This document shows, one piece after another, positions 42,827 through 60,484 of a DNA stretch of 64,000 nucleotides. Every line of letters begins with the position of its first letter. The first letter of the stretch is position 1. This DNA is from Psammoneis japonica (taxonomy: Eukaryota): positions 62,001 through 126,000 of the forward strand of contig QPGO01000090.1 in assembly GCA_008632985.1 (NCBI GenBank), in the 5' to 3' direction. The notes below the pieces were generated by a model. The model was not told the DNA's origin. It saw only the letters and a list, made by a program, of their open reading frames with translations, and did not search any database. The position numbers and the translations under genes were made by a program.

Positions 42827-44523
42827 GGACAATCCTGGCTCTCACAGAGAGAAGCACTGTGTGACCCAAAGCTTCTAAAAGGACTGTTGCTGATGATGAA
42901 TGATCCCTGGCATCAGTGAAACCTGGCACTTTCCAGGTTGCTCTTTGTTTGCAGCAGCTCCACAAGCAGATTTTGAGCAATGGCTCTGTCCTTGTTGTTG
43001 CTCCCATTGACAAACTGAGTGATGTCTAAAAACAGCTCAAATGTGAGCATTTTCCTTGAGTGCATCTGCCAGATCAGAAGCATCTTGATTTGCAAACTCA
43101 AAGTCCAGCCAGCCCAGTTTTGCATTTGTTGTGGATGGCTTGTTTTCACAAACTGAGATGAAAACAAAGGCAATTTCTTCTTCTGTCATGGGCTGCTCTG
43201 ATGCTGCCAAATCATCATCAATGGCAGAGACATCAGAGTTTTTGCTCCATGCTGGTGACCAGATCTCATGTTTGTCAAGAGACACATGCACCCTGCTTTG
43301 CAGAGTTTTCTGTTGGTGTTGCTGTGCATTGGGCATTTCTCATTTCTCCATTCAGAGCATTTTTTCAAACTGCAGCTGAAAGCATGGCAGCACAACCACA
43401 ATGGCATGAAGTGTGCCACGTTGCATGAAAGGTCTCTGTCCATCCAAGAGACTCTCAGCACAGGTGCAATGGAATTTTTTGTTGGCGCTCTCTTTGTCAC
43501 TCACAAAGGGTGCCCTCTTCCTCAACTGCCTTGACATGATGGTCTTGGCAGCCCACAAATGTGTGGCACACAGCTCGTGCACTTGGAGAAAGAAGTGTGC
43601 AAAGAACATTGCCTTGCTGCACTTTTCCACAGCTTGCAAATGTTCATTCCACCACCAGATTTTGTGGTGCAGATCAGAGACCAATGAGAGAGAGTGGTCT
43701 GAGACTCACCCCCCTGCTCACACAGGGGCTTTTCACTCATGAACTGCTTCCATGTTGAATGACTGATGTGGGAGCAGTGCCGTGTGCTGCAAATCACCAG
43801 ATCAAGCCACTGCCAGCTCACTTCTTTTTTTTTTCATCAATGACACTTTGCTTGTTGATGAGCAAAGAACAAGTTTGCCTGCAGCCCCTGCTGCCCATCC
43901 TTGTGGCTCTCCTGCAGGAGCTTCATCTCCAGGTTCCCCAAAGACACACAAGCTCCTGCATGAGGTCTAGTTCCTTGCAGCTTGTGCAACAACCAACTGG
44001 AAAGCTTTGCAGAGTGTCCACCAGCCACAACAGAGAAGAACAAGGGAGCAAGCAACAGAGGGCAATTGTCAGGCAATCAGACCAGCACAGCCCAAATGAG
44101 GTCTGAGCCTCCATGAACAGGTGAGGCAATGACCCATGCACAAAAACAGCTGCAGCTGCAATGTGGCAAACATCAAGATCATCTGAGCAGCCAAGGACCC
44201 ATGGCCCTTGTCACAAAAATCAACCAGATGGATGATGCCATTGCATCAGCTCCATTCTTGCCAACATGCATCAGCTCCATTCTTGCCAACATGGGCTTTT
44301 AGAACAAAGAGATGTCAACAGCTCTGACAAAGTGAGCCACTCACACTGCAGTCACTGGAAATTGGATGACAAAGAATGGAAGCTGTTGATGTGGCAACCA
44401 GCCAGATTTCCAGAATTTTGACATTGTTCTGCAGCACCACCCTCTGTTTCAGCAGTGGCAGCAGTCTTTGCCAAATGGTCTGTCTGGCAACAGCATGGCT
44501 GCATTTGCTCACAACTGACAAAA

Positions 44524-47500
44524 TGCAGCATGTGTCATGCTGGCACATGGTGCAGACCATGCATGTCCCAGGGTGGCACACACCGCAGCAGTGATGGCAT
44601 GCCCCATGGAAACACAGGGGGGCTCTGTGATTCCATGGCTCAGCAAGAAGTTTGAGCAGTGAGTGTCCATGCACACAGTGTGTGCATGTTGTTGAGAGGC
44701 CATCAATGCAAGCATGATGCAGCACAAAGGCAGCACATGCATGTGCTCATGATGATGCACAAAATGTGGGTTGGAGAAACTGACACATGGCTGATCACAC
44801 ATCAGCCAACAGGGAACTGTGTGACTCCCCATTCACACAATTCCACTTTTCTAGACAAAATCTAATCTCACAATTTTCAAAAACCAACTTTTAAACAACC
44901 CACTGTTTTTTGTTGCCTGACAGTGCACAAGGCATGGCAATGTTGTCTTGCAAGTGTGCAAAGGTTGTGTTGTCAGTTTGACTGCTGACATGCCAACCAA
45001 CCATGAAGAAGCAGAGTGCACTGCCAATTCCATTGAAACATCTAGAAAAGAAGGTGCTGTCAAAAGGAAAGCACCACATGCATGAGCTGAGGAACTTGCC
45101 AACAGATGCTGGCAGCCCCATGCATGAACTTGGTGTTCTGCCCTTCTCTGCATGTGCAGAGCACCTGTCATTCTTGCACAACACTGAACATGCAGTGTTG
45201 GGTGGTGGGGCAACAGAGACAATGTGTCGTTCAAGGCATGTGTTGCCAAAGTTGTGAGAAAGCATCTTCCCATGGAGGGTGGCGCTGTTGCAGAAGGATC
45301 ATTTGCAACATTTCATGCACAAGCCAGTCAACATGAAAACTCATGATTGTGTCGCAAGGGCCATTGAATTCAATGGCTGTGCAATGTTGTTTCTGCCCAG
45401 TGACAGAAGATGGGGCAATGCCTGCATTGCCACCAGATGATGAGCTGGTTGACTTGTTTGAACTTGGAGTGCCAATGCATGGCATGGGGAGATCATCTTT
45501 CAGGACCACAATGCATTGGCACATGGCATTGCCCAATTTGTCTCATTCTGCAAGTGTGCCAAGCAAGTGGAGCTCACCAAAGGTGAGCAGGAGAGTCGTG
45601 TCAAGGTTCCTGGGAAGCAGGGTTGCAAAACAGACAATTGTTGGTGGTGTTTGATTGTGGGTTGAGAGAAATCCCTTAAATGCTGCATTGCATGGTGCCA
45701 ATGTCATGCAAGAGTGTTGCAGTTTGAAGTGTCAGGTGAAATGTCTCAGTGCATCCCAGTTGAACAGTTGTGCTGAGCTGTCTGCATGGAAGCCCTGCAA
45801 TGATGATGAACTTCTTGGTGCAGCCACTGAAGCCAAGGTCAAAGACATCCTCAAGTCCCACAAGGCAAAACGCAAGGCATGCAAAGAAGAGTTGAGTCAC
45901 TTCCATGACTTTTCCTCAAGTGACTCAGATGTTGCATCTGACAATGACAACATCATCTGAAAAGCTGGCCAATGCAAGTCAGATGGGTTTGTCACATTGG
46001 ATGAATGTGCTGATCACAATGTGCCCTGTTGCTGTGCTCACATTGCAGGCCAATCTAATTGGTGCACCAAACACACCCATTTGACACCGACCTTGTTTGT
46101 GGCTGTGAATGCCAAACATGGCAAAGGCAAAACTGAGGCAATTGAGGCACTGCTGGACAGCAGTGCCAGCAGTGAGCTGTTGCACTGCAGCACGCAGTTT
46201 TGAAAGGCGTGCAGTTGTTCCATTGAGTTTCAGTTGCAAAAATTGTCCACAACTGCAGAACTCACATGTGATGTCCAAATGCACAACACATGCCAGAATC
46301 CCAGGGTGTGACATTGCATTCTCAGAACAGCTGTCAAATGGCCAAAGGCTTGTGGTGAAATGCCAGTGAGGGATGCAGAAGTTGCAGCAGAGACATCCTT
46401 CTTCTTCCATCAAGATCTGGAGCCTCTGTTGATGGAGTGACAGAATTTTGAAAATTTTGGGTGCAAAATGCACACCAGCATGCCTTGCAGAGACAACCTG
46501 AGGGAGCACAAGGGCTTGACAGTGACCAGCAAGCAAAGCTGCTGAGGCTGTTGGAACAATGTGAGCTCTCATTTTGATGGCACACCAGGTGAATGGAAAG
46601 GAGGCAAGCCACACCACACCCAACCAAAGAGGACACTTGTGAGCCACATCATGGATGTCTGTGCAAAGTCTCAAGGGCACATGAAGCCACACTCTCAAGG
46701 GCACATGAAGCCACACTCTCAAGGGCACATGAAGCCACACCACACAAAGAAACAGCATGCCTGTGCAAGACTGGCATCCTCAAACATGTTGGCCATTCAC
46801 AGCAGGTCACTCCATCATTTGTCATGCCAAAGAAGGTTTCAAAGGCATGATTTGTTGATGATTTCAGGGATCCACACAAAAGGATCAAAAGATTGCCTTG
46901 TCCAATTCTCCACATCCAAGACATGCTTTCAAAGCTTGAGGGCTTCATGTGGGTGCAACATCATGACAGGATTTAAGTGCAGGACATTGCCACAACACTT
47001 GGCTTGGTCACCTGACAGTGGCAGCTGAAAGCTGTGCATGCTTGTCTTTCCATGGTAGAGAAAGTGCAAGATGCAGGTCCTGCCAACAGGCTCGTGCAAC
47101 TCTCACCTGACATTTTTCAGGAAAAGTTGTCAGAGTCATTCAAAGAATGTTTCATTTGCACATGCGCACAACTCAGATGATCTTCTTGCAGTTGCTGAGG
47201 GCACTTGTGAAGACCAGTTGGAGAAACTGGTGGTCATCACACTGCAGCACATGCATGATGCTGGGCTTGAGGTCAGTGCAAGAAAATCATGCTTTTGTCA
47301 AACCTGGTTGTGGAGAGCACTTGGGCCATTTGGTCACTGGGACAGATCATGCTCAACACCTTCCAAAGCCCACTGACAAAAGGCAGCTGTGCTTGTTTCA
47401 ATTTGTGGGTGTGGTCAACTGCCATTGCAATGCTTGGCCAAGACATTCTGAAATTTTAGCTCTGCATGCAAGACTCACAGACGGGACTTCTAAATGATGG

Positions 47501-49353
47501 GAATGGACATCTGTTGAAGACGAGGTGCTTGAAACCATGAAAAGAGCATTGTCAGATGATGTCTCATCAGGGCACCCAGATTTTTACAAACCATTTGAAG
47601 TCCACGCTGATGCCTCCAAATGTCAACTCAGAGCAGCACCGTCCCAAGAAAACAAACCCGTTGCCTTTTGCAGTGGCTTGACAGTGCACAATTAAACTGC
47701 ACAATGACAGAGAGAGAATTGCACACCATCTTGGAGACCTTGAATAAATTTCAAACAATGCACCTTGGTCAGTGCACAATTGTGCATGCTGATCATAAAA
47801 ACCTCATGTGTGACGTGTTTGTTGACACCACAAGTGTCATGCATTGCCAGCTGGCATGCAAAGAAGAATGCAGCCTGGAACTCTGGTGCATCAAGGGTTG
47901 CCATGACCTCAAACCTCATTGCAGATGCCCTGAGTCACCTGGCACCAAAACTTGGTTTGGAGTCCAAGTGTGGTCTGACAGTCTTAGAAACACCAGGCAC
48001 ATGTCCTCCCCTGCACAAAGCATTTGCTTTGCATGCACTGGCTCCACCTGCAAGCTTTAGAAAAATGCAAATTGTGGGGGAGATGTGCCATGACAGCTGA
48101 CATGCTGTCAGGACAAAATGGTTGTGCCAGAGGCATTGAGACAACCTCCATTTGAGTGGCACTGGAAGCAGCTGTGCCGCCACCCTGGCAAGACACAAAC
48201 AGAAATGTCTGTTGCCCAGCACTTCTGCTGGCCTGGCATGAGAGCTGCAGTGTGCTCTAAATGTGTTGAGTGTGGTCAATGCCAAAAGACAAATGCCAGA
48301 CACATCACTGTGGGAAGTTTTGCCAGAAATGGTGGCTGAGACAGCCAAGATCAAGCAATGTGGAAAGGACACTTTGCAGCTTGTTTGGGCAGCAACCATG
48401 ATCAACCCAGTGACAGGATGGTTTGAGATCAAAGAAGCAACCAATGGACAAGCACATGTTCCAGCAAATTGTGTGGAACAGACATGTGGCTGTGCAGGTG
48501 CCTGTGGCCAAGCAAGGCGATTTGTGACCATGGCACTGAATTTGTGGCCAAACTCAGTTGCATGATCAAGAGTGACTTTGACGTTGCCCAGAAACCAAAA
48601 AGCAGAAGAAATCCACAGACAAATGCCATGGTGGAGTGCATGCACACCAGATTCTTCTTGGAAACATGGTGCACTCATTTCAGTGCAGGATGTGGAGCAG
48701 GACAAGAGCAACCCATGGAGTGGCACTCCATTGGCTTTTGGTCTTTGGATGTGATGCAGTGGAGCTGATCTGCTCAAACAACAAATGCAAGAACATGAAA
48801 AGCAAAAGGAGTGCCAACATGCTGTTGGGTGAACTGGCACTTGTCAAACAATGACAAAAGACAAAATGCAGAGCTGACTGTCATGCAGATTCAGCCAAAA
48901 TTGTCTGCATGAATGACAACGGCACTTTTTGCATGCAAGATGCTGGTGCACTGACAGGTGCACACAATCTCTGTGGCAGATTGTGCTCCCTGGCTGCAGC
49001 GGGGCATCTTGATGCTCATTGTCCTGGGTCATGGGGGAGCATTGTGGTGTGTGTTGCACTGGCATGCAGTGCAGACTGTGCACATCCCAGGGTGGCATGC
49101 ACTGGAGCAGTGATGGTGTGCACTGTGGAAAAAGCACAGGGTGCTCTGTGTTTCTAAAACTTTGTGCCATGTGGTGTGCTGACAGGACCCACCACCAGTG
49201 CAAGCATGATCCAAAATGCCAGCTGATGGTGAATTTGTGCGACCCCCACATTCACACTGTTCAACTTCTCCATGCAGCAAACTGGTCTCATAATTGTCAC
49301 AAAATGGCTTTTGAAAACTCCCTGTTTTTTGCTGCCTGACATCACACAAGGCA
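44524..49353 (+). mobile_element. Degenerate Ty3/Gypsy LTR retrotransposon; LTRs about 44524-44934 and 49043-49353
   Basis: Protease ALLDSSAS, RT (FDGTPGEW, SDDLL..DAGLEVSARKS), RNase H (KPFEVHADAS..TERE..DHKNL) and integrase (HPG..HFCWPGM..C..CQK, TGWFEI, DHGTEF, NPQTNAMVE). GGGGGAG PPT before the 3' LTR, TG..CA ends, possible AAAA TSD. Confidence 0.88.
46669..46740 (+). repeat. 24-bp tandem repeat x3 within Gypsy RT
   Basis: TCTCAAGGGCACATGAAGCCACAC three times, identical. Confidence 0.95.
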
Positions 49354-49861: not shown

Positions 49862-51418
49862 TCAGATGCAGTGTGTCTCAGAGCTTGCCTGCATGAACAA
49901 CATCTGATTGAAGTTTCGAGGTGAATTGTGAAGCTCAGAATCAACTTTCGCAGGCACATCATCGGCAATTACAGCTGCGCTGCTCAAAACAGAATCAGGA
50001 GGATGTGCAGCCTTTTTCTTACGAAAACTCTTCAGAAAAGGCAGAATGCGCTCCGTCCGCTTCTTGTGATCGGCTTTTTCTGCCTGGATGGCCGCTTCGA
50101 TGATGGTCTGATTCTCTTGCAAGGAATCAACAACTTGACGAAGCTCCTGCAGTTGCAAACGGAGGTCCACTTCCTCAGTGTCAACCAGTTGGGCCACAAC
50201 AAGAGGCCCGGCGTCCTGGGCTTCTTCAAGAGAGTCTCTTTCACTTGTTTTCTGCTTTCTGCCCACTTTAATGTCAGCCTCAGCCTTGTGAGTGACGTCA
50301 CCAAGAATTTGGTGAATGGCCGGTGGATCCGGTTTCACATGACAAGGAACCGCACCCGCATCAGCCGGAGGATCCGGGCATGCAGAACGTGCACAAGGAT
50401 CCCTTAATTCAAGTGTTTTTGATGGAAGTGAAGCTGTTTTTCGTGTGCTTGTGGCAATCTTGTTGTCAACATCTGGTGGATCGGGACGAGTGGCTGCCTT
50501 CGACTTGTGCTCTGAGCCAAAGGCTCGCTGCAGCAAAAGTCTCCGAGGCCTGCGTGATGTCGATGCCTCGTTGTTGCCACCTTGGTGTTCATTTGTGTCT
50601 TCTCTGTTGCCCTGCAACAAAGAGTCATGATGCTCCTGCTGCATCATTGCCAGCACATCTGCAGTCTCTCGCAAGCAAAGATCTAGTGCAGCAGCAGTCA
50701 TGCTGCGACTGTCTCTCACAAGCGATGCAAGAACTGACGGCATCGACTGCGAGATGGAGTCGAGCTCGAAGGACGCACAAGCAGTTTGCTGTTCTTCGTT
50801 TCTTCCTGGGATGACAATGACACTGGGAGGTTCAGCTTCTGGGTCGTCTTCCCCTCTATCTTCATGCCGCGGAGATGGTGGCGCGTCGTGGATGTGATTT
50901 CTGTCCACCGCATTTGCGTTGAACTCGAAAGCACTTTCCCATGGAGCAATCGCAGAGGCTCCAGTCGGTGGGGAAGGCTTGGTGATTCCCCTCTTTTCAT
51001 TTTTTTCTCTTTCAGCAAGAGACCAAGCAACCACTCTTGACGCAGCTGCTTGATGCAAGTCGCACAGCAGGCCGGGACGCCTGTGGGTCTCATCCCAATC
51101 CACCAGTGGCACACTTGCAACTGCTGATCTTCTGTCCACCTCTTTCTCTTCGAAGGCATGTTCCTCCATGTCATTGCTCGCACCCGCTGAGGCGAGAATT
51201 CCAATTGCGATCCCCCCAATTTCTGATGGACTTTGCATTCTTGATGCTGCCGAACTGCCACATTTTGGCGGCGACAGAGCCTGAAGAATCATCACGTGTA
51301 GATTGCTTTTTGCTGTCTTGTTGTGAGAACTGTTCAGAACACAAAAGTTCACTAAAAGAAAGCAATTCATCTGCATCTTGTGAGTGGGCCGTGCTGCAAC
51401 CGCTTGACTCGGTGTCAC
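49862..51418 (-). CDS. Uninterrupted 518-codon host-type ORF with no tyrosine (TpA-erased, CpG-retaining); true start, stop and functionality uncertain
   Basis: Protein-like composition (PDPP motifs, coiled-coil-like LRLQLQELRQVVDSLQE) unlike the spurious ORFs nearby. No Y in the translation, and CG is abundant. Confidence 0.6.
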   Translation of the reverse strand: MTPSQAVAARPTHKMQMNCFLLVNFCVLNSSHNKTAKSNLHVMILQALSPPKCGSSAASRMQSPSEIGGIAIGILASAGASNDMEEHAFEEKEVDRRSAVASVPLVDWDETHRRPGLLCDLHQAAASRVVAWSLAEREKNEKRGITKPSPPTGASAIAPWESAFEFNANAVDRNHIHDAPPSPRHEDRGEDDPEAEPPSVIVIPGRNEEQQTACASFELDSISQSMPSVLASLVRDSRSMTAAALDLCLRETADVLAMMQQEHHDSLLQGNREDTNEHQGGNNEASTSRRPRRLLLQRAFGSEHKSKAATRPDPPDVDNKIATSTRKTASLPSKTLELRDPCARSACPDPPADAGAVPCHVKPDPPAIHQILGDVTHKAEADIKVGRKQKTSERDSLEEAQDAGPLVVAQLVDTEEVDLRLQLQELRQVVDSLQENQTIIEAAIQAEKADHKKRTERILPFLKSFRKKKAAHPPDSVLSSAAVIADDVPAKVDSELHNSPRNFNQMLFMQASSETHCI

Positions 51419-52990
51419 ACATCATCGTCATCCGTCATCCGCTGTCACAGTTTCTTTTTCTTCTCTGTCTTTTCAATTGATGTGGAACTGCAGCATTGCC
51501 GCCAAGTGCCAATCCTTGTCAGTGCCACAGCACTGTGTGCACAGTGCTGTACATTGCACGGTGTTAAGAGGGCGGTCCAGAGATCGCCTGGTGCACTTTT
51601 TACGTAGAAACTGCCAGAGAGCCAATCACGTACATTCCCACACAGACGCAGCACAAAACAGAAAGCATGGCACTCCATCACGCGACCTCACGACGACACC
51701 ACCTGACGACAACGCATCAAAATGGCGTTGTCCGCATCTTTCTGCAGCTCCTCTTTCACTTGCCCGATTGCTCCAAAAGGGCCAGGGGAAGCTAATGAGC
51801 TTTCTCTTATAACAGAGCAATGCAAACAAAAGTTGTTTTTTATTCCAAAATCTCAGAATACAGTGCAACCGATTGTCAAGGCGAACTCGCACGTTGGCGG
51901 CAACAACACCAGTTGATGTTCACTCTAGAACAACAATGGAGACGTGATGCCCCAACAAAATAAAGTCCACACCCCCATGATAAATTTTAAAGCTGGTTCT
52001 TCTTGTTGGCACACAATCTTTAGCTGCTTTTTAGAGTTTGTTGCATTGGCTGACAAATTGGGCAAGTGAGCCACACATTTCTAGCTTGCAAACTGCCTTG
52101 CAGCCAAAAGAAGCAATCTAAACCTTCAGAACAGCCATGATGCACTGGTCTGCCGAATCAAACTCCGCATCACCAAGTGGAGGCGGGGAGAACCATTGTC
52201 AAAAATGCGCTGTGATGGATCTGAGCTCTTGAGAGCTTGTCCAGCTTTTGACACCACAGCCCCAAATCACCACATTTATCATGAAGTCAGCCTGATGCTG
52301 TGTCTGTGACTTTGCCTCGTTTTGGAATTGCCACGGCCATCGCATTGCAGAATTGACATTCTTGACGAGGAAAAGTGTTTCTGGGACACCTTGCGACGAC
52401 GGAGACCCTGCAGAACAAAAGAACAATGTAGAAAGAGACAACACATGCAAGTCAAACGGGTGTTAATGTGTGAAGCCTCAACGAAACACACAGCACGAAT
52501 GGTGATGCATGAGGTCGGTCGTGATGCAACAGAAGCGACACTGTCAACGCGAACCTTCAGTGAGAATTTTCACCATCAGCTGCCCATGTGAACCTGTGTG
52601 CTCTCGAGCTTGTCACATGCCTTGTGCTGTGACGTAAGACATTCTGTTGAGAGTACACTGTAAAGTGCCTCAGAAACAACCGCATTTTTGAAATCGGCGA
52701 AACGCCATTGTCCGTGTTGTTTTGCGTGTCATTTTGCGTCGCGAGCCAGAAAACACTCCCAAAAACTGTTCTACAGGGCAAAATGCACTGAATCTACACA
52801 GATTTGGGTTGCACCAGGCCACGTAGAAAATGAACGGGCCAAGAACTGTGGTGCGCCCACTTGATGCGTAGAACATGGAACAGCTCTGCTTCACGACATC
52901 CGCGTTTGCTTTAGTCGTGGGTCTTGGCTTGGCGAGTAAATTCCGATGGAGAGGACGGACAGGCGAGAGGAGTGTGAGTCTTGCATGCGT

Positions 52991-55900
52991 GTGGCTGCGC
53001 CACCCAGTGGTCTACCTTTCACAGTCGCCCAGACTTGGACAGTGGGTGCACCAAGAGGCCAGGAGCAACAGGCTGGGACAGTTTGCCAATTGGTCCCAAA
53101 CCTTGCATCCCAGGCCAAGTGAAAGCCCGGGAGTGGAGGAGGGTGGGTTGCAAAAACAATTGCTTCGACCTTCAGACAGCGCTGGTGTCGCAACCGAGGC
53201 AATGAGGTTCAACTGCCTTGTTGTTTTTCTCTCATTGGCTTCAGCTGGTGCATTGGACAGGTCATCTCGTGGGTGATGTGGTCTGAGTGTGCATCTGTTG
53301 TCTGCACGCTTCATCACTGCACCTGTTCCACGCAGACCTCGGTGGCTGCGCCGCCCCACCCAGTCTGGCTTTCACAGTTGCCTGGACTTGGATGGCAGGC
53401 ACGCCAGGCTGGGAGCAATGGGCTGGGACAGTCCACCAATTGGCCCCATTCCTTGCATCTCAGACCAAGCAAAAGCCCACTGCATCCAAAGGAAATTGAC
53501 TGGGGTGGGACAGGCAAAGTGCCTGTTGGGAGATTGTGCGCATCTTCAGCAGGGACTTGGCTCAGGATTGGAAGGGTTGAAGCAGGGATGGCAGAACCCG
53601 GGACAAGAGAAAAACTTCTGTGTGTCAGCATGTTGGTGGCAAAGCTGTGCATGAGGGGTTTGCCTGAGTGTGCAGGTCGCGAAGCATTTTGTCGGAGCAT
53701 CAGCGGCCGACAAGACGAGTCACATCAGGATCTTTGTTGGCACAAAGAAGTGCCATGGCACCACCAGCTTGGAGGCTGCGAGTGGAGGCATCATTGGGAG
53801 ATGAGCTGCAGGTGTTGAAGTTGGCCATGGCATTGAGACAGCTGGCATTGGTGATGTCACTCAAGGCGACATTGGCCCAGCGGTTGTTGCAACAAATGGC
53901 ATGCAGTGGCGTGTCGGAAGGAGCATTGTGCTCTCACAAATGCTTGACATGATGGTGCAAGGCCTGGATCAGACCAATTTTGGGGTTGGGAGTTGATCCA
54001 TGCCCAATCAATTCACCAGGAACTCTGTTCTTTTGCATGGTGAACAGAAGGGTGACAAAATTGGTGGTGCAAAGGTGTGAGAGCGGGGCAACAAGCAGAG
54101 TGTGGAGACGATGGGCGGCAATGTGAAAAGTGACATCTTGGAGTCAAAAGGGGTCACTGCAAGATTGTGCAGTGGTCTCGGCATGTTTGCCAGGATGGCA
54201 CAAGAAGAAGAAACCAATTTAGACCATGTCTGAGACAGCCAACACAAATGTGCCGGTGGTTTGCTTTGCCACAACATGCACTTGAGGAATCAGTGTCAAT
54301 GGTGCAGGCTTCATGTGTGTGGGCGGTGGATCCCAGTTGCACCACCCTTTGAGTTGCTGTGCCAGCCAACAGTTGAGGTTGCAATTGTCCACCAGGCAAT
54401 GGTCTTGGGACCCCAGGCTGGCAATTGTCTGGCTGACACCATGGAGGATGTCCTCCATGGCACAAGACTGGATGGCAACACTGCCAGGAACAATGCGTCC
54501 TTTGCAATGGTGGCAGCAAACACCATGAGGAATTGGGTGGGGTCTTCCATGTTGTCGAGGAAAGGGTCAATGCCCAAGGTTTTGCAATGGCAGGTCCAAA
54601 ATTCCCAGGCAGAATCATGGCGGGCGGCACATTCAGGAATGACACAGGATCTGGCCTCTGACTGCACAGTGCTGAGATCACGGAGGCAAGCATTGTGGGT
54701 CTCAGCCAGCAGAGTCACTGCGGCAGGGTCTGGGGATGTTGCTGTTCAAAATGAGACAGAAATGCAGTGTTGGAGAGGTTCCAGAGTCTGGAGGCATTGT
54801 TGGCAATCATGTTGGTCCAGCCCAAGATGTGATCCCACAGCACCAAGTGGCGGCAGTGGTGCTGGTGTGGTGCACTCAAGCAGAGGAGGTGCACGGCAGC
54901 ATTGCATGCAGTGAGCGAACCTTTTCATGACCGGGATGCTGCAGGCATGTTGTTGGTGAGCACACCTGCTGTGCATTCCCACACATTGTGCTGTTGCACA
55001 AGAATGTCTGGGTGTGCAATGGTGCCAGTGAGCTTGAAGTCACTGTTGGCAAGGTCGCCATGTGGGTCATCCCACAACACAACAAAGCATTCTTGGATGT
55101 TGTGGGGAAATGGCTCACACCATGCAAGAGGTTCACCATTGGGAGTGAACCATGTGCCACCCATTCCCGGTCCCACAGCGTCCACTGTGCCAACAGCAGA
55201 CAGCATGTTTTGCACAATTTTGGCAAGATGTGTGGGATGGGCAATGATGTCACAAGCCAACATTTTGATGCTGTCAAGCTGAGCACGCATGGCAGAGTCA
55301 ATGCAGATGTTGCAACAGGCTGAAGAGCCTGTGCCCACCAGGTGTGGCAATGACCACACTGTGGAGCTCCCCAAGGACTGTGTGCCAAGTTTTGACAGAC
55401 ACACAACAAATGTCACACAAGCTGTCAAAGACTTCCAGGAGATGCACAATTTGGTGTGAGGGCAATGCAATGATCTGTTGCAGGGTGTCAAACCAGTTCC
55501 TTGTGAGTCAAAGCAACCATTGGTGACAAGGGGTGCAAAATGTGTTGTCTGTGGTGATGGTGTGCATGACAACCGAGTGGGAGTGTGCTTGTTGTGACTG
55601 AGCCTCATGCCCGCAACAGTGAGGAAGATGCTCAAGCCACTGTTGATGTCTTGCTTGGGGATCAGCACTGCCCAGCCAAAAGCTGTTCATCAGGTGTTTG
55701 AACAACTCTGGTGTGAGAATGGGAGCATTGGCAATGGCACCAACCTGCTGAGCCCATTGGCCCAACAGAGCCTGGATGGAAGACACAGCTTCACCCTTGC
55801 CTGCCCCAGCCAGGGCATGCCACATCTCAGGTGATGCAGTGTCGTTGTTTGCCTCACACATGTGGCAGATGCTGGCAACTGTCTGGGGAAATTTTTCAGT

Positions 55901-56593
55901 TGGTGACTTGGGAGCATGTTCCACTGTGCAAGTGTCAGTGGCCTTGGTGCACTGCTGGGCAAACTTGGTGTGCATCACTTGGAGCATCTGTGTCAGGATG
56001 GTGTTTGCAGTGCCCATGTGGTTGGCAAGGGCTGGCAGGTCCTGCATCAACCACAACCATGCACAGTGGTTGAGATGAGCATCCTCTGCCAGTGCTGCAG
56101 GGGTGGCCACAGAGATGCTGGGTGGCAGATCAGGATTGCCAGCTGCATTGCCAGGATGGTGGGTGCAGGCCACACAAGCCCAGTCAAGGAGGGGGGTGCA
56201 GGCTTCTCCACACCCATCAGCAACAATGAGCTGCATCACACCCATCCAGAACTGCTGCAGGGTGAAGCTCTGATGATGGGCCACAACAAGGGACATGCAA
56301 GCAGGCAGAATCAGCATGAGGAAACAAGTGTGCACCTCTTTGACTTGTGCCACTCCATCAGCACAAGGTCCGAGACAGTCAGCACTGGCTGCCACAGCCT
56401 CTGATTGCAAAAACAATGGTTTTGACCTCAACAGTGGTGTCATGATCAAAACAATGAGGTTTGACTGCCTCATGGTTTTTCTCTCATTGGCTTCAGCCAG
56501 CGCATTTGACAGGTCATCTTGTTGGTGATGCAGTCCGAGTGCATCTGTTGTCTGCAAGCTTCATCACTGCACCTGCTCCACACAGACCTTGGT
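52991..56593 (-). mobile_element. Ngaro-type (DIRS order) tyrosine-recombinase retrotransposon, internally deleted and degenerate
   Basis: Split direct repeats A1(56593-56405)-ORFs-B1(53478-53342)-A2(53343-53148)-B2(53128-52991). Gag-like ORF 56557-55650, RNase H (DAVGPGMGGTWF..NSDFKL.G.IAH.DIL) and YR motifs IGFFFLCHPG, RSLQAGGAMALLCA and RLVGR..SDKMLR.LHTQA. Confidence 0.85.
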
Positions 56594-57741
56594 CATGCAG
56601 GCATTGCTGATCCAACTGAAATTGTGCAGCACACATCTGGTGTTTGTTGTTTTTTGCATCATTTCTGCAAGCGTTGCATTGCTGATGAATGATCAACAAA
56701 GTCTGATGAGCACAGTTAAAATTTCAAATTCAACAGATGTCAGACCTTCATTGACAAATTTAACATGGAATGGAGCAAAGTGACATCACCTCCTAAACCC
56801 CATTGGCCAAGCTGGATGACAACAACAATGGCAACAATGGCAGCTCTGATTCAACGCCCACAAAATCCCCTGCCAAAAGAGCATGAGTGGAGACTTGAAC
56901 ACTCACCCTTCACACTGAGAAGGAAGAACAAGCAAAGAGATTGAGAGTGGGAGGACATGCTGGAATTGCAACTTGGGGCCAACCTCTCAAGTGCAAATCT
57001 GTTCATGCTACAAACATGGTCAACAAATGTAAGAACAAGGGAGGACTCCCAACTTGCAGAATGACGAGCAACAGGAACTTGGATGTGAAGCCACAGAAAC
57101 TTCCAACCTTCCCAGAATCCAGTCCACTTCAGCCAAAAATCTGTCAATTCATCAACAAGACCCCTGATGCCACTGACAAACAAAACAAAGACAAGGCTGG
57201 CACTGAGGCCAACAAAGAAAACATTGCACATTGGCAGAGATGGTGAGGAGGTTTGAACTGCCACAGAGGGGAGTGCACAGTTGGAGGACAAGGAAAGCTC
57301 AGAGGGAGCTGTCATTCCGTCAATTGATGACACCAATGCCACACCCAACGACTTCAACTCAGATGCAGAATGGATCATGTGTGAAACGCATGGCAAGACA
57401 TGTCATCTTGGCGATGGTGCTGAACTGGATGGTGGGACATTGGACAACAAATCATGGCAAGAGCACTGGCATGCTGGCTGATGCCCTGCCCATTGCAACA
57501 ATGCAATGCACCAAATGGCTCAGTTGGAAAATGATTCATTGCAATGTTGGCAGAGCTGTTGCATGGAGTCACAACATGGAAGTGGAACTTGGAAAGGTTT
57601 GCAGTGTGTCAAATGGTCATTTTGCTGCAGCAGGGCTGCAATGTAGAAGGAGCCAAAGATGTCAAAACCTTGCTCAGCATGTGCATGGATGATTGGGACT
57701 TGGGTGAGAGCAAATGCTGGTCCAGTCAATGAAACAGCTGC

Positions 57742-58767
57742 TTGAAGCAAACCTCAAGACAGTTCAAAGGGAGGAGATGCCTGAACAGCACTTCAAGACA
57801 TTCAATGGATGGTGCTGCTCTCCAAGGGAACCCAAGAGGAGCAGTCAGGCACATCTCTGAATGCAAAAAAGGTGAAATCCTCTCACTGGATGATGCCAAA
57901 GAAAAAACCAATGACACAGTGTTTGAGGCACTTCAGAAGAAACATCCAAACCAGGGGTCCCAGATGAAGACCATTTTCACAAGTTCTGTGAGCTGCCTGA
58001 GCTTCAAAACATCCTCACTGCAAATGGCGCTGTCAAAACCGTTGCACAAAGACTGTCTGGGAGCACAGGACTTGGCAGATCTGATGCCAATGCAGCATCT
58101 GAATGGCTTCTCTGTCATGGAAAGGCCAGCGGAGTGCTCAGAGAAGTGACGCGCATGTTTGCAAATTGGCCAGGCGGCAAATGAGTTGCCCCCATTGGCT
58201 GCATGCTGTGCAATCATGGAGAAGTGACTTGTTGTGCTAGAAAAAAATCCGGGTGTGCATCAGGTTGGCACAGGGGAGGCATGGCAACAAGCTGCGGCCA
58301 AAGCCATTCTCCTGGTTGCTGGAGCAGAGGCCAAGGAAGCTTGTGGGACAGACCTGCTGTGTGCTGGACTGGAAGCAGGCATCAAAGGTGCCATCCATGC
58401 AATGAGTGTTCTCTGGAAGCAACACAAATTTGAAGATGGCTGCAGATTTCTTTTTGTCAATGCCTCCAATGGGTTCAACAAAGAGAACAGGATCCCAACG
58501 CCATGCAACATGAGGCACCTTTGGCCATCCAGTGCAAGGTTCACCTTCAACAGCTGCAAGTGTTGGAGCATCCTGATCATCCACGGGAACTTTGGAGCTG
58601 CCCTCATTTTGTTCAGCAAAGAAGGTGTCACGCAGGGTGACCCACTTGGTGTGGGAGCACATGGACTGGGACTTCTTCCACTGGTCCACAAGATGAATGA
58701 ACGTTTCAAGAATGCACTTGCCCCTTGGTGTGCTGATGACTCCACAGCAGTGAGCGGGAAAATTTGA
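57742..58767 (+). mobile_element. Non-LTR retrotransposon RT remnant, CRE-like clade
   Basis: PGVHQVGTGE, EACG..LCAGLEAGI.GAIHA, RHLWPS.ARFTFN, EGVTQGDPL and WCADD (=WYADD). Element boundaries not resolved. Confidence 0.82.
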
Positions 58768-59380
58768 CATCCTGCGTTTTTTCCCCCGAAGACATCAAGA
58801 TTTTAATGAACCTCAATGAGCTGCACCCACCAGCAATTGATTTTGCCCACAATCATTTCCCTCATGTAAAAAAAGCCAGCGGGCAAGTCCATTCAGCACA
58901 TCTTCTTGCCTCCCAGAAGCCAGAAAAACCCACAAAACACAACATGAGTTGAAAATTGAAAGTGCTTGTGATGCAGGAGAAAAGAAGAGAATTGAAGCTT
59001 GCAGCCAGGAGATTGGTTGCACACACAAACATTCCTGTGACCTGCACATGCAGAAGCTCTGCAGGCGACCCTCAGCATTGTTTGTAGAAAGCACTTTCTC
59101 ACGCAAACAATGTGTTGTGCCAGCAGTCACATGATGTCCTCCATTCTCCATCACAAAAAGCAAAAAATGAAGGAGGGGATGTTGCAGCTTTGTTTCTTTG
59201 TTCCACATCCTGAGTGAACTCAATGATCATTTTTTTTGTGATTTCCAAATTTTGTGCACTGATGAAACATTGTGTGAATGCATGACAGGGAACATTTTGC
59301 CAAGCAAATCACTGAACAATTTTGATGTTTAATCTTAACTCATGTGATGTCGCAGTTTTCTTTTTTTTGTGCTTCTTCAA

Positions 59381-59922
59381 GGCAATCGCAGAACCGCGCG
59401 AGAAATGAGAAGACGATTCGACTTTCTGAATTTTTTTTGCACTGTAAACTTCGTGCGCGCTACACGCATCATCGCTAAAAATCGGCGACATGACGATGGT
59501 GCGTTGTCGTAACGACGGCGATAAAAACGACGTGTCCTCGACTGTTTGGGCACCACAGACATTTAGTTCATTAAGTTTAAGAACGTGTTCAGTCATGAAA
59601 GTCCCCGGGAGAAGCCTCCGTTCGAAAGCAAAACGTCACACCAATGCCGAGCTCAATTTTTCGACCATCGTTTGGTTTGATGCATTCGATTGTGGAACGA
59701 CCAAGAGTTCGTCCGGGGGACTTTCTTGATGCACACGTGTTCTTAAGAGTGTCATTGACACAGTCGCTGAGTGCCAATTGTGAAGTCTTTCTCTAGGAGT
59801 GTCGCAAACTTGTCATCGTCATCGTCGGCATTGAACGGCAATTTGTCGCGCAAATCGCGAAAACACAGCACGGACCGTTGTCTTCCGACATTGAGCTGCT
59901 GCACGCGACTGCTGCGCACACC
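59381..59922. mobile_element. About 540-bp TTAA-flanked non-autonomous element, copy 1 (Kolobok-like termini)
   Basis: TCAA|GGCAATCGCAG...CACACC|TTAA. Collinear with 59951-60484. Confidence 0.7.
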
Positions 59923-59950
59923 TTAAAAAAAAACTTTCATCTTTTTTTAA

Positions 59951-60484
59951 GGCAATCGCAGAATGAAGGGGCAAAGGCACGACAATTTGATTTTTCAGGA
60001 TTTTCCACTGCACGAGAAACGCGCAGCGCGCTACGCGCCTCGTCGCCAACAATCGGCGACGTGACGGTGGTGCGTTGTCACAACGACAGCAATGACAGCG
60101 ACGTGCCCCAGAGTCTTTTGTCATCACAGACATTTAGTTTGTCATGTTTAAGAATGCATTCAGTCATGAAAGTCCCCGCGAGCAACCTCCATTAGAGCGC
60201 AAAACGTCACACCAATGAGGAGCTCTGTTTTTCGACCGTCGTTTTATGCACTCAATTGTCGAACGATCATGAGTTCGTCTGGGGGACTTTCTTTACACAC
60301 ATGTGTTCTGCATGGTGCAATTGATCAATGTGTTAAGTGCCCATTGCAAAGTCATCCTCTGTCAGCGTCTGAAAATTGTCATCATCACGTCGGCGTCGAC
60401 GGCAATTTGTCGCGCAAATCGCAAAAAATGCACGACTGTCGTCTGTCTGACATTGCGCCACTGTGCGCTCGTTGTGCACGTGCC
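59951..60484. mobile_element. About 535-bp TTAA-flanked non-autonomous element, copy 2 (Kolobok-like termini)
   Basis: TTAA|GGCAATCGCAGAA...TTGTGCACGTGCC|TTAA. Confidence 0.75.

What the first reader, a model, noticed from the sequence alone, without database searches (positions are those of the whole stretch)
49862..51418. A 518-codon intact ORF with zero tyrosines: a host gene recoded but not truncated
Seen: the ORF lies between the Gypsy and Ngaro elements, has no stop or frameshift, retains CG, has almost no TA, and encodes no Tyr. Cys and His sit where Tyr would be plausible (LLCDLHQ, PCARSACPDPP, VPCHVK). Genetic-code logic: TA>TG/CA turns TAY into Cys or His and can abolish TAG/TAA stops, but cannot create new stops. 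Inference: collateral mutagenesis of TE-adjacent genes yields full-length Tyr-free, possibly C-terminally extended proteins, which could be a source of novelty or a soft knockout.
Basis: partly seen in the sequence, partly recalled or inferred. Interest (0 to 1): 0.75.

Follow-up and report, generated by a model that had tools for sequence, protein, structure and literature searches.

The report
Host gene stripped of TA steps
In a probable diatom, a single-copy host gene wedged between transposons has lost every tyrosine codon because a TA-erasing mutation process aimed at the transposons ran across it; its open frame is a by-product of that chemistry, and nothing yet shows that the altered protein is made.

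Summary
Observation largely holds: the minus-strand frame 49862-51418 is open for 518 codons with no Tyr. It is a real host gene: 6 distant homologues and 3 paralogues. From Met61, TA steps are 6 against 44 expected and CG steps 62 against 79. The surviving TAs show the same flank bias as in the neighbouring dead transposons. The unmutated relatives all carry Tyr (0.8-2.3%), and a paralogue split by a young LTR element has lost TA for about 1.1-1.3 kb beside the insertion, so the loss goes by position. An open frame is expected without selection, and about 7% of residues change. Expression could not be tested. Best reading: a recently silenced gene in early decay, like RIP leakage in reverse. 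TpA hypermutation is in print for one chlorarachniophyte; this scan already found it, and its leakage into genes, elsewhere in this genome.

The parts
49862..51418 (-). Open frame of 518 codons, no Tyr (P0001); first about 60 codons probably non-coding
49862..51238 (-). Probable coding part from Met61, 458 codons; low-complexity protein of a small unnamed family
50609..50866 (-). Conserved core (about aa 185-270) shared with 6 homologues and 3 paralogues
50069..50215 (-). Second conserved motif with short predicted coiled-coil character, matches the C-terminal motif of P0003
   Evidence: 44% over 50 aa; weak coiled-coil Pfam hits below cut-off
51263..51266 (+). T run, one base longer in the read-set contig; decides whether the first 52 codons are in frame
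50920..50921 (+). TG in the window, TA in the read-set contig (synonymous)
51157..51158 (+). CA in the window, CG in the read-set contig (synonymous)
49800..51560 (.). Single-copy island with TA erased and CG mostly kept
44531..49353 (+). Old Gypsy-type LTR element, TA and CG both erased; LTR-like pair 44531-44934 / 49050-49353 (72-75%), RT, RNase H and integrase zinc-finger remnants at about 46880-48300
51563..52865 (.). 1.3-kb non-autonomous TIR element (MITE-like), 58 matches in the genome, about 20 near-full-length at 88-93%; partly TA-erased
52991..56593 (-). Ngaro-like element with split direct repeats, TA erased, CG largely lost
   Evidence: no Pfam hit; family name from recalled motif

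Best explanation
An ordinary single-copy host gene was enclosed by transposons (Gypsy 0.5 kb beyond its stop; MITE 325 bp before its likely start, Ngaro-like element behind that) and fell inside the domain on which this genome's TpA mutator acts. Shown: TA loss in all codon phases and in the flanks, with the transposons' flank bias; position-dependent spread into a paralogue. The mutator prefers the A of 5'-TAY, which is the Tyr codon, so Tyr disappears first; A>G and T>C at TA cannot make a stop, so the frame stays open. Inferred: the domain is silent chromatin spreading from the elements, the chemistry is adenine deamination or an equivalent A:T>G:C step, and slower CG decay has begun. The gene is most likely silenced or dispensable and in early pseudogenisation; the open frame is a by-product.
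For: TA 6 vs 44, lost in phases 1-2, 2-3 and 3-1 alike (0/12, 3/14, 3/18). Survivors in the ORF: 4 YTAR, 4 mixed, 0 RTAY, against 61/23/1 in erased transposons and 128/396/213 in host DNA. In 6 MITE copies YTAY went to TG 39 times and CA 17, RTAR to CA 42 and TG 12. All 6 homologues and the intact paralogue carry Tyr. Paralogue on C246 is split by a 6.9-kb LTR element with LTRs 92.5% alike and a 5-bp target duplication on both sides; TA is erased for about 1.1-1.3 kb of the 5' gene half and through the 3' half; about 12 of the LTR differences are TA-derived against about 3 CG-derived. Paralogue on C59 is TA- and CG-erased with a stop. Single copy by DNA, so no repeat pairing is needed. 122 of 191 TA-low/CG-kept 500-bp bins lie within 2 kb of an old erased bin, against 232 of 963 normal bins. 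With 82% TA and 25% CG loss, intact genes stay open in 15-77% of simulations. Gains are not biased to synonymous outcomes.
Against: No orthologue closer than about 30-46% identity, so no site-by-site polarisation. The family is Tyr-poor (about 1% in the six homologues), so absence of Tyr alone has P 0.004-0.016. Only 8 surviving TAs, so the flank bias in the ORF alone is weak. 78% of CG is kept beside elements that lost nearly all CG, which could mean the gene stayed unmethylated and active until recently or still is. The adjacent MITE is less erased (26 of 69 TA columns kept) than the gene, so it is not clearly the source. The selection test is weak and confounded by an Ala/Pro-rich composition. 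Silencing itself was not measured.
Confidence: 0.68

Rival explanations
1. Same mutational cause, but the gene is still expressed and yields a working Tyr-free protein; a disordered protein tolerates 6-9% change.
For: Frame open from Met61 in both the assembly and the read-set contig; CG largely kept; both conserved motifs recognisable; both differences between assembly and read-set contig in the ORF are synonymous (2 of 2).
Against: Openness is expected without selection; no Tyr spared; no synonymous bias; Arg conserved in 6 of 7 unmutated relatives is Cys at position 248; MITE in the likely promoter; the C246 paralogue is equally open for 373 codons although already broken by an insertion.
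Confidence: 0.17
2. The sequence was moved here as transposon cargo or a displaced duplicate and was mutated as foreign or mobile DNA, not as a resident gene.
For: 3 of the 4 family members found in the genome are TA-erased in whole or part; it is about 150-300 residues shorter between its two motifs than P0002, P0003 and the C109 paralogue; the island has no other host gene.
Against: No DNA-level source copy; paralogues are only about 23-29% identical; it lies outside the recognisable ends of all three neighbours; the C246 case is a resident gene with a clean insertion.
Confidence: 0.11
3. The protein is natively Tyr-free and TA-poor, or the ORF is a chance product of stop-codon loss or an assembly artefact.
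For: Family is Tyr-poor; erased DNA does give spurious ORFs up to 454 codons in simulation; 8 of 21 TA-low long ORFs in the sample are Tyr-free, several in antisense or alternative frames.
Against: Homologues at E 7e-8 to 1e-3 and paralogues; TA loss at synonymous positions and in non-coding flanks; the read-set contig reproduces the erased sequence with 3 substitutions and 1 gap in 3371 bp.
Confidence: 0.04

Closest known systems
TpA hypermutation of integrated NCLDV and virophage DNA in Bigelowiella natans (Mettrop et al., bioRxiv 10.64898/2026.01.13.699255; parts 1-3 of 5 read, term search)
   Same: A:T>G:C transitions at TpA giving TpG/CpA, regional, on single-copy DNA; that paper also lists 24 Pfams of likely host origin among TpA-depleted CDS.
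   Different: Here a probable diatom, transposon blocks rather than viruses, near-saturation, a flank preference for TAY, and traceable spread into resident genes. The paper's main text has no occurrence of 'diatom', 'tyrosine', 'stop codon' or 'flank'. There the rate was measured; here it is read from footprints. Its supplements were not seen and may list host genes.
[quoted passage not shown] AvrLm6 of Leptosphaeria maculans (PMC2973834; passages read)
   Same: A transposon-directed mutator overruns neighbouring single-copy genes over about a kilobase.
   Different: RIP is C>T (CpA>TpA) and put 4-6 premature stops in every affected AvrLm6 allele; this process removes TpA, cannot make stops, and removes Tyr. 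RIP's meiotic timing, repeat pairing and enzyme were not testable here.
CG methylation of diatom transposons by DNMT5a (PMC9998398; abstract only) and CpG decay
   Same: Explains the CG>TG/CA loss in the old flanking elements and probably the partial CG loss in the ORF (inference).
   Different: Does not explain TA loss, which runs ahead of CG loss.

Membership tests
Bigelowiella-type TpA hypermutation | Transitions at TpA to TpG or CpA | tested here: met
   MITE copies: of 69 TA columns the window copy has 26 TA, 23 TG, 18 CA, 2 other; LTR pair on C246; ORF counts
Bigelowiella-type TpA hypermutation | Confined to regions, on single-copy as well as repeated DNA | tested here: met
   Block structure; ORF single copy
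Bigelowiella-type TpA hypermutation | Target is integrated viral DNA | tested here: not met
   Target is a host gene beside LTR, TIR and Ngaro-like elements
Bigelowiella-type TpA hypermutation | Rate about 1000-fold raised, measured in mutation-accumulation lines | not testable with these tools
   Only one assembly and one DNA run
RIP and its leakage | C>T at CpA, creating TpA and stops | tested here: not met
   TpA is lost, not gained
RIP and its leakage | Spread about 1 kb from repeats into single-copy genes | tested here: met
   C246 paralogue, about 1.1-1.3 kb; this island about 2 kb between two blocks
RIP and its leakage | Premeiotic timing and RID-type enzyme | not testable with these tools
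   No data
Functional protein-coding gene | Homologues in other genomes | tested here: met
   6 hits, E 7e-8 to 1e-3, among 1.84 billion representatives
Functional protein-coding gene | Transcribed and translated | not testable with these tools
   No RNA holder listed
Functional protein-coding gene | Purifying selection since the TA loss | tested here: inconclusive
   No synonymous bias by codon phase, low power
Ngaro retrotransposon (right neighbour) | Split direct repeats | tested here: met
   56405-56593 repeats at 53148-53343; 53342-53478 repeats at 52991-53128
Ngaro retrotransposon (right neighbour) | RT, RNase H and tyrosine recombinase domains | tested here: inconclusive
   0 Pfam hits in 3 frames; recombinase C-terminal motif recognised from memory

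The most novel reading that the evidence does not exclude
A genome-defence mutator whose preferred target is the Tyr codon and which cannot create stops rewrites whole host genes next to transposons, some hundreds per genome, and some of them, this one included, stay expressed: a directional, stop-free diversifier that removes Tyr phospho-sites and adds Cys and His.
Probability: 0.15. Interest if true: 0.78.

Novelty: new variant of a known kind. Interest (0 to 1): 0.5.

Why it matters
It shows what an A:T>G:C transposon-directed mutator does to a whole host gene: unlike RIP leakage it leaves an intact-looking frame, so gene callers will count such loci as genes, and Tyr-free long models become a cheap screen for them. 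One family gives three states in one genome (untouched, TA-erased and open, TA- and CG-erased with a stop), which orders the two decay processes. Spread into single-copy DNA argues for targeting by chromatin position. If any such gene is still expressed it would be a new route to protein variation; this locus does not show that.

Tried and rejected
Word-index protein searches found nothing: whole protein, alignment A1, region 185-275; only lengths near the query were searched. ESM Atlas gave no usable hit for P0001 or P0003. Pfam: 4 weak hits below cut-off for P0001, none for the 6 homologues or 2 paralogues. Homologues carry no informative names. No RNA holder listed, which is no evidence on expression. 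No unerased allele was laid from the DNA run (one contig, flat depth 68), but contigs drop variants and ploidy at the locus is unknown. No remnant of the intact paralogue's N-terminal domain in the window. Better candidates are C214 (Tyr in 2 of 7, Phe in 1) and H264 (Tyr in 2 of 7); M226 faces Ile in 4 of 7 but Met in the intact paralogue. C-terminal extension: the first codon that could be a lost stop is Q505, so at most 14 residues; unprovable. No fold was predicted: the alignment is shallow and low-complexity. Literature searches with no diatom report of TpA hypermutation: (library lacks most subscription papers).

Full report
Observation. The frame is on the minus strand: 518 codons, no stop, no Tyr, ending in TGA at 49862-49864. 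The window alternates between gene-rich DNA with ordinary TA and CG and blocks where both are nearly gone and TG/CA are doubled. The ORF is in a third state, TA gone and CG mostly kept. It has 8 TA against 88 expected from positional composition, where nine host ORFs of the window have 233 against 524. Against 106 normal ORFs from elsewhere in the genome, the part from Met61 has 6 TA against 44 and 62 CG against 79: about 38 TA and 17 CG sites lost. Simulated erased DNA never gave an ORF of this length (0 of 1000 and 0 of 100). The genome is 91.4 Mb in 597 contigs; 'diatom' is my reading from gene style and from earlier notes of the scan, not a tool result.

Two corrections to the anatomy. The only DNA run that holds the locus has one contig over 48221-51590 with 3 substitutions and one extra T behind 51262. 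With that base the upstream frame meets two stops 9 codons earlier, so the open stretch is 475 codons and the likely coding part starts at Met61 (458 codons); no homologue aligns to the first 119 residues. Whether the assembly or the contig is right is open; the run may be the assembly's own sample. Second, the direct upstream neighbour is a 1.3-kb element with short inverted ends, 58 matches in the genome (40 of 179 candidates scored), 325 bp from Met61. Behind it lies an element with split direct repeats, Ngaro-like by a recalled motif but without Pfam hits. On the other side an old Gypsy element (RT, RNase H, integrase zinc finger) ends about 0.5 kb beyond the stop.

It is a host gene. A search of 1.84 billion representatives gave 6 homologues (E 7e-8 to 1e-3), unnamed, sharing a core at aa 185-270 and in part a PDPP motif and a C-terminal helical motif. 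They carry 2-10 Tyr each, 0.8-1.3%. The family is Tyr-poor, so zero Tyr alone has P 0.004-0.016; the strong evidence is the TA loss in all three codon phases and the flanks. The protein looks low-complexity with a short coiled-coil (inference); P0002, P0003 and the C246 paralogue end in a hydrophobic segment, this one and the C109 paralogue in a basic tail. Its molecular function is not established.

Three paralogues give a series. C109 is intact, 915 codons, 21 Tyr, normal TA. C246 is split by a 6.9-kb LTR element with 358-bp LTRs 92.5% alike and the same 5-bp target duplication on both sides; TA is erased from about 1.1-1.3 kb upstream of the insertion and through the 3' half, while CG is kept in the 5' half and in the element. 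Its LTRs differ by about 12 TA-derived events (8 CA/TG doublets, 4 single) against about 3 CG-derived and 4 others: TA loss is faster than CG loss and spreads by position. Its 5' half is open for 373 codons although the gene is already broken. C59 has lost both TA and CG and has a stop. The window's gene sits in the middle state.

Flank rule. Surviving TAs in 31 kb of erased transposon DNA are 61 YTAR, 23 mixed, 1 RTAY; host DNA has 128, 396, 213; the ORF has 4, 4, 0. The 800-kb sample repeats this. In six MITE copies YTAY went to TG 39 times and CA 17, RTAR to CA 42 and TG 12 (copies are related, so counts are not independent). The preferred target is thus the A of 5'-TAY, which in frame is the Tyr codon. 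Stops are TAR: of 105 normal ORFs 49 end in TGA, 31 in the refractory YTAR context and 25 in RTAR, which can be lost from the other strand. Read-through is therefore the minority outcome; here it could add at most 14 residues and is unproven.

Does the open frame mean function? No. With TA loss alone all 9 test genes stayed open in 300 of 300 runs; with 82% TA and 25% CG loss they stayed open in 15-77% and changed 6-9% of residues. The ORF keeps 4 CGA codons. By codon phase the gains fall on CA at 2-3 (47 vs 32) and TG at 3-1 (68 vs 50), not on the synonymous outcomes of TA loss (weak, composition confounds). In the core, 5 columns hold Tyr in at least one of 7 unmutated relatives; the ORF has Cys or His at 3 (214, 248, 264), but 248 is Arg in 6 of 7 and fits CG decay. 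Both substitutions between assembly and read-set contig in the ORF are of the signature types (TA/TG, CG/CA) with the assembly in the derived state: a hint of continuing decay, or of consensus error. By genetic-code logic (inference) TA loss can also remove an ATG preceded by T (10 of 105 first ATGs), splice signals and TATA-like elements, so absence of stops does not mean absence of knock-out.

How common. In four 200-kb blocks I chose from large contigs, 128 ORFs of at least 350 aa were found; 107 have normal TA and none is Tyr-free; 21 ORFs at 11 loci are TA-low and 8 of these are Tyr-free, several in alternative frames. Of 16 of the 21 scanned, 4 hit retroelement domains, 1 a PT repeat, 11 nothing; two or three look like host genes by eye. 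That extrapolates to some hundreds per genome, so this locus is one of a class.

Comparison. The mutation type matches TpA hypermutation in Bigelowiella natans (bioRxiv 10.64898/2026.01.13.699255; parts 1-3 of 5 read), which proposes an ADAT-like deaminase and notes host-type Pfams among TpA-poor CDS but does not treat leakage or Tyr loss (supplements not seen). The spread matches RIP leakage into AvrLm6 (PMC2973834, passages) with opposite chemistry and opposite effect on stops. Five searches found no diatom report. Earlier agents of this scan reported the process and its leakage on other DNA of this genome.

Verdict. A real host gene fully overrun by the TpA mutator; most likely silenced and decaying (0.68), possibly still working (0.17). 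New variant of a known kind; interest 0.5.

Noticed in passing
L004:1417-2538 and L008 (G000:C246:87743-94685): Paralogue split by a young LTR element with intact target duplication; TA erased in both gene halves near the insertion, CG kept. A 0.35-kb patch inside the element (93131-93485) keeps its TAs.
   Followed up: yes
window 51563-52865: Multicopy 1.3-kb TIR element; copies fall into a 88-93% and a 72-77% identity class, and keep 18-51 of 69 TA columns; flanks of several copies are TA-poor on one side only.
   Followed up: partly
L005:346-3093 (G000:C109): Intact 915-codon paralogue with an extra N-terminal globular-looking domain and no Pfam hit; it starts about 0.3 kb from an erased block yet is untouched.
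   Followed up: partly
L067:8786-9844, L080:6437-7630, L023:2873-3949: Further TA-erased long ORFs with 0-1 Tyr that look like host genes (a membrane-anchored protein, a Cys-rich repeat protein, an unknown); 1.5-4.6 kb from the nearest old erased block.
   Followed up: partly
window 52835-56000: The read-set contig differs from the assembly at 6 sites; the 5 shown outside the internal repeat are all CG/TG or CG/CA, whereas contigs over 44000-48231 differ at 1 site.
   Followed up: no
window 59438-60427: Tandem duplication of about 570 bp, copies 74-79% alike, TA-poor with CG partly kept.
   Followed up: no
window 56900-58900: Degenerate reverse-transcriptase-like reading frames on the plus strand beyond the Ngaro-like element (seen by eye in a six-frame print-out, not scored).
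   Followed up: no
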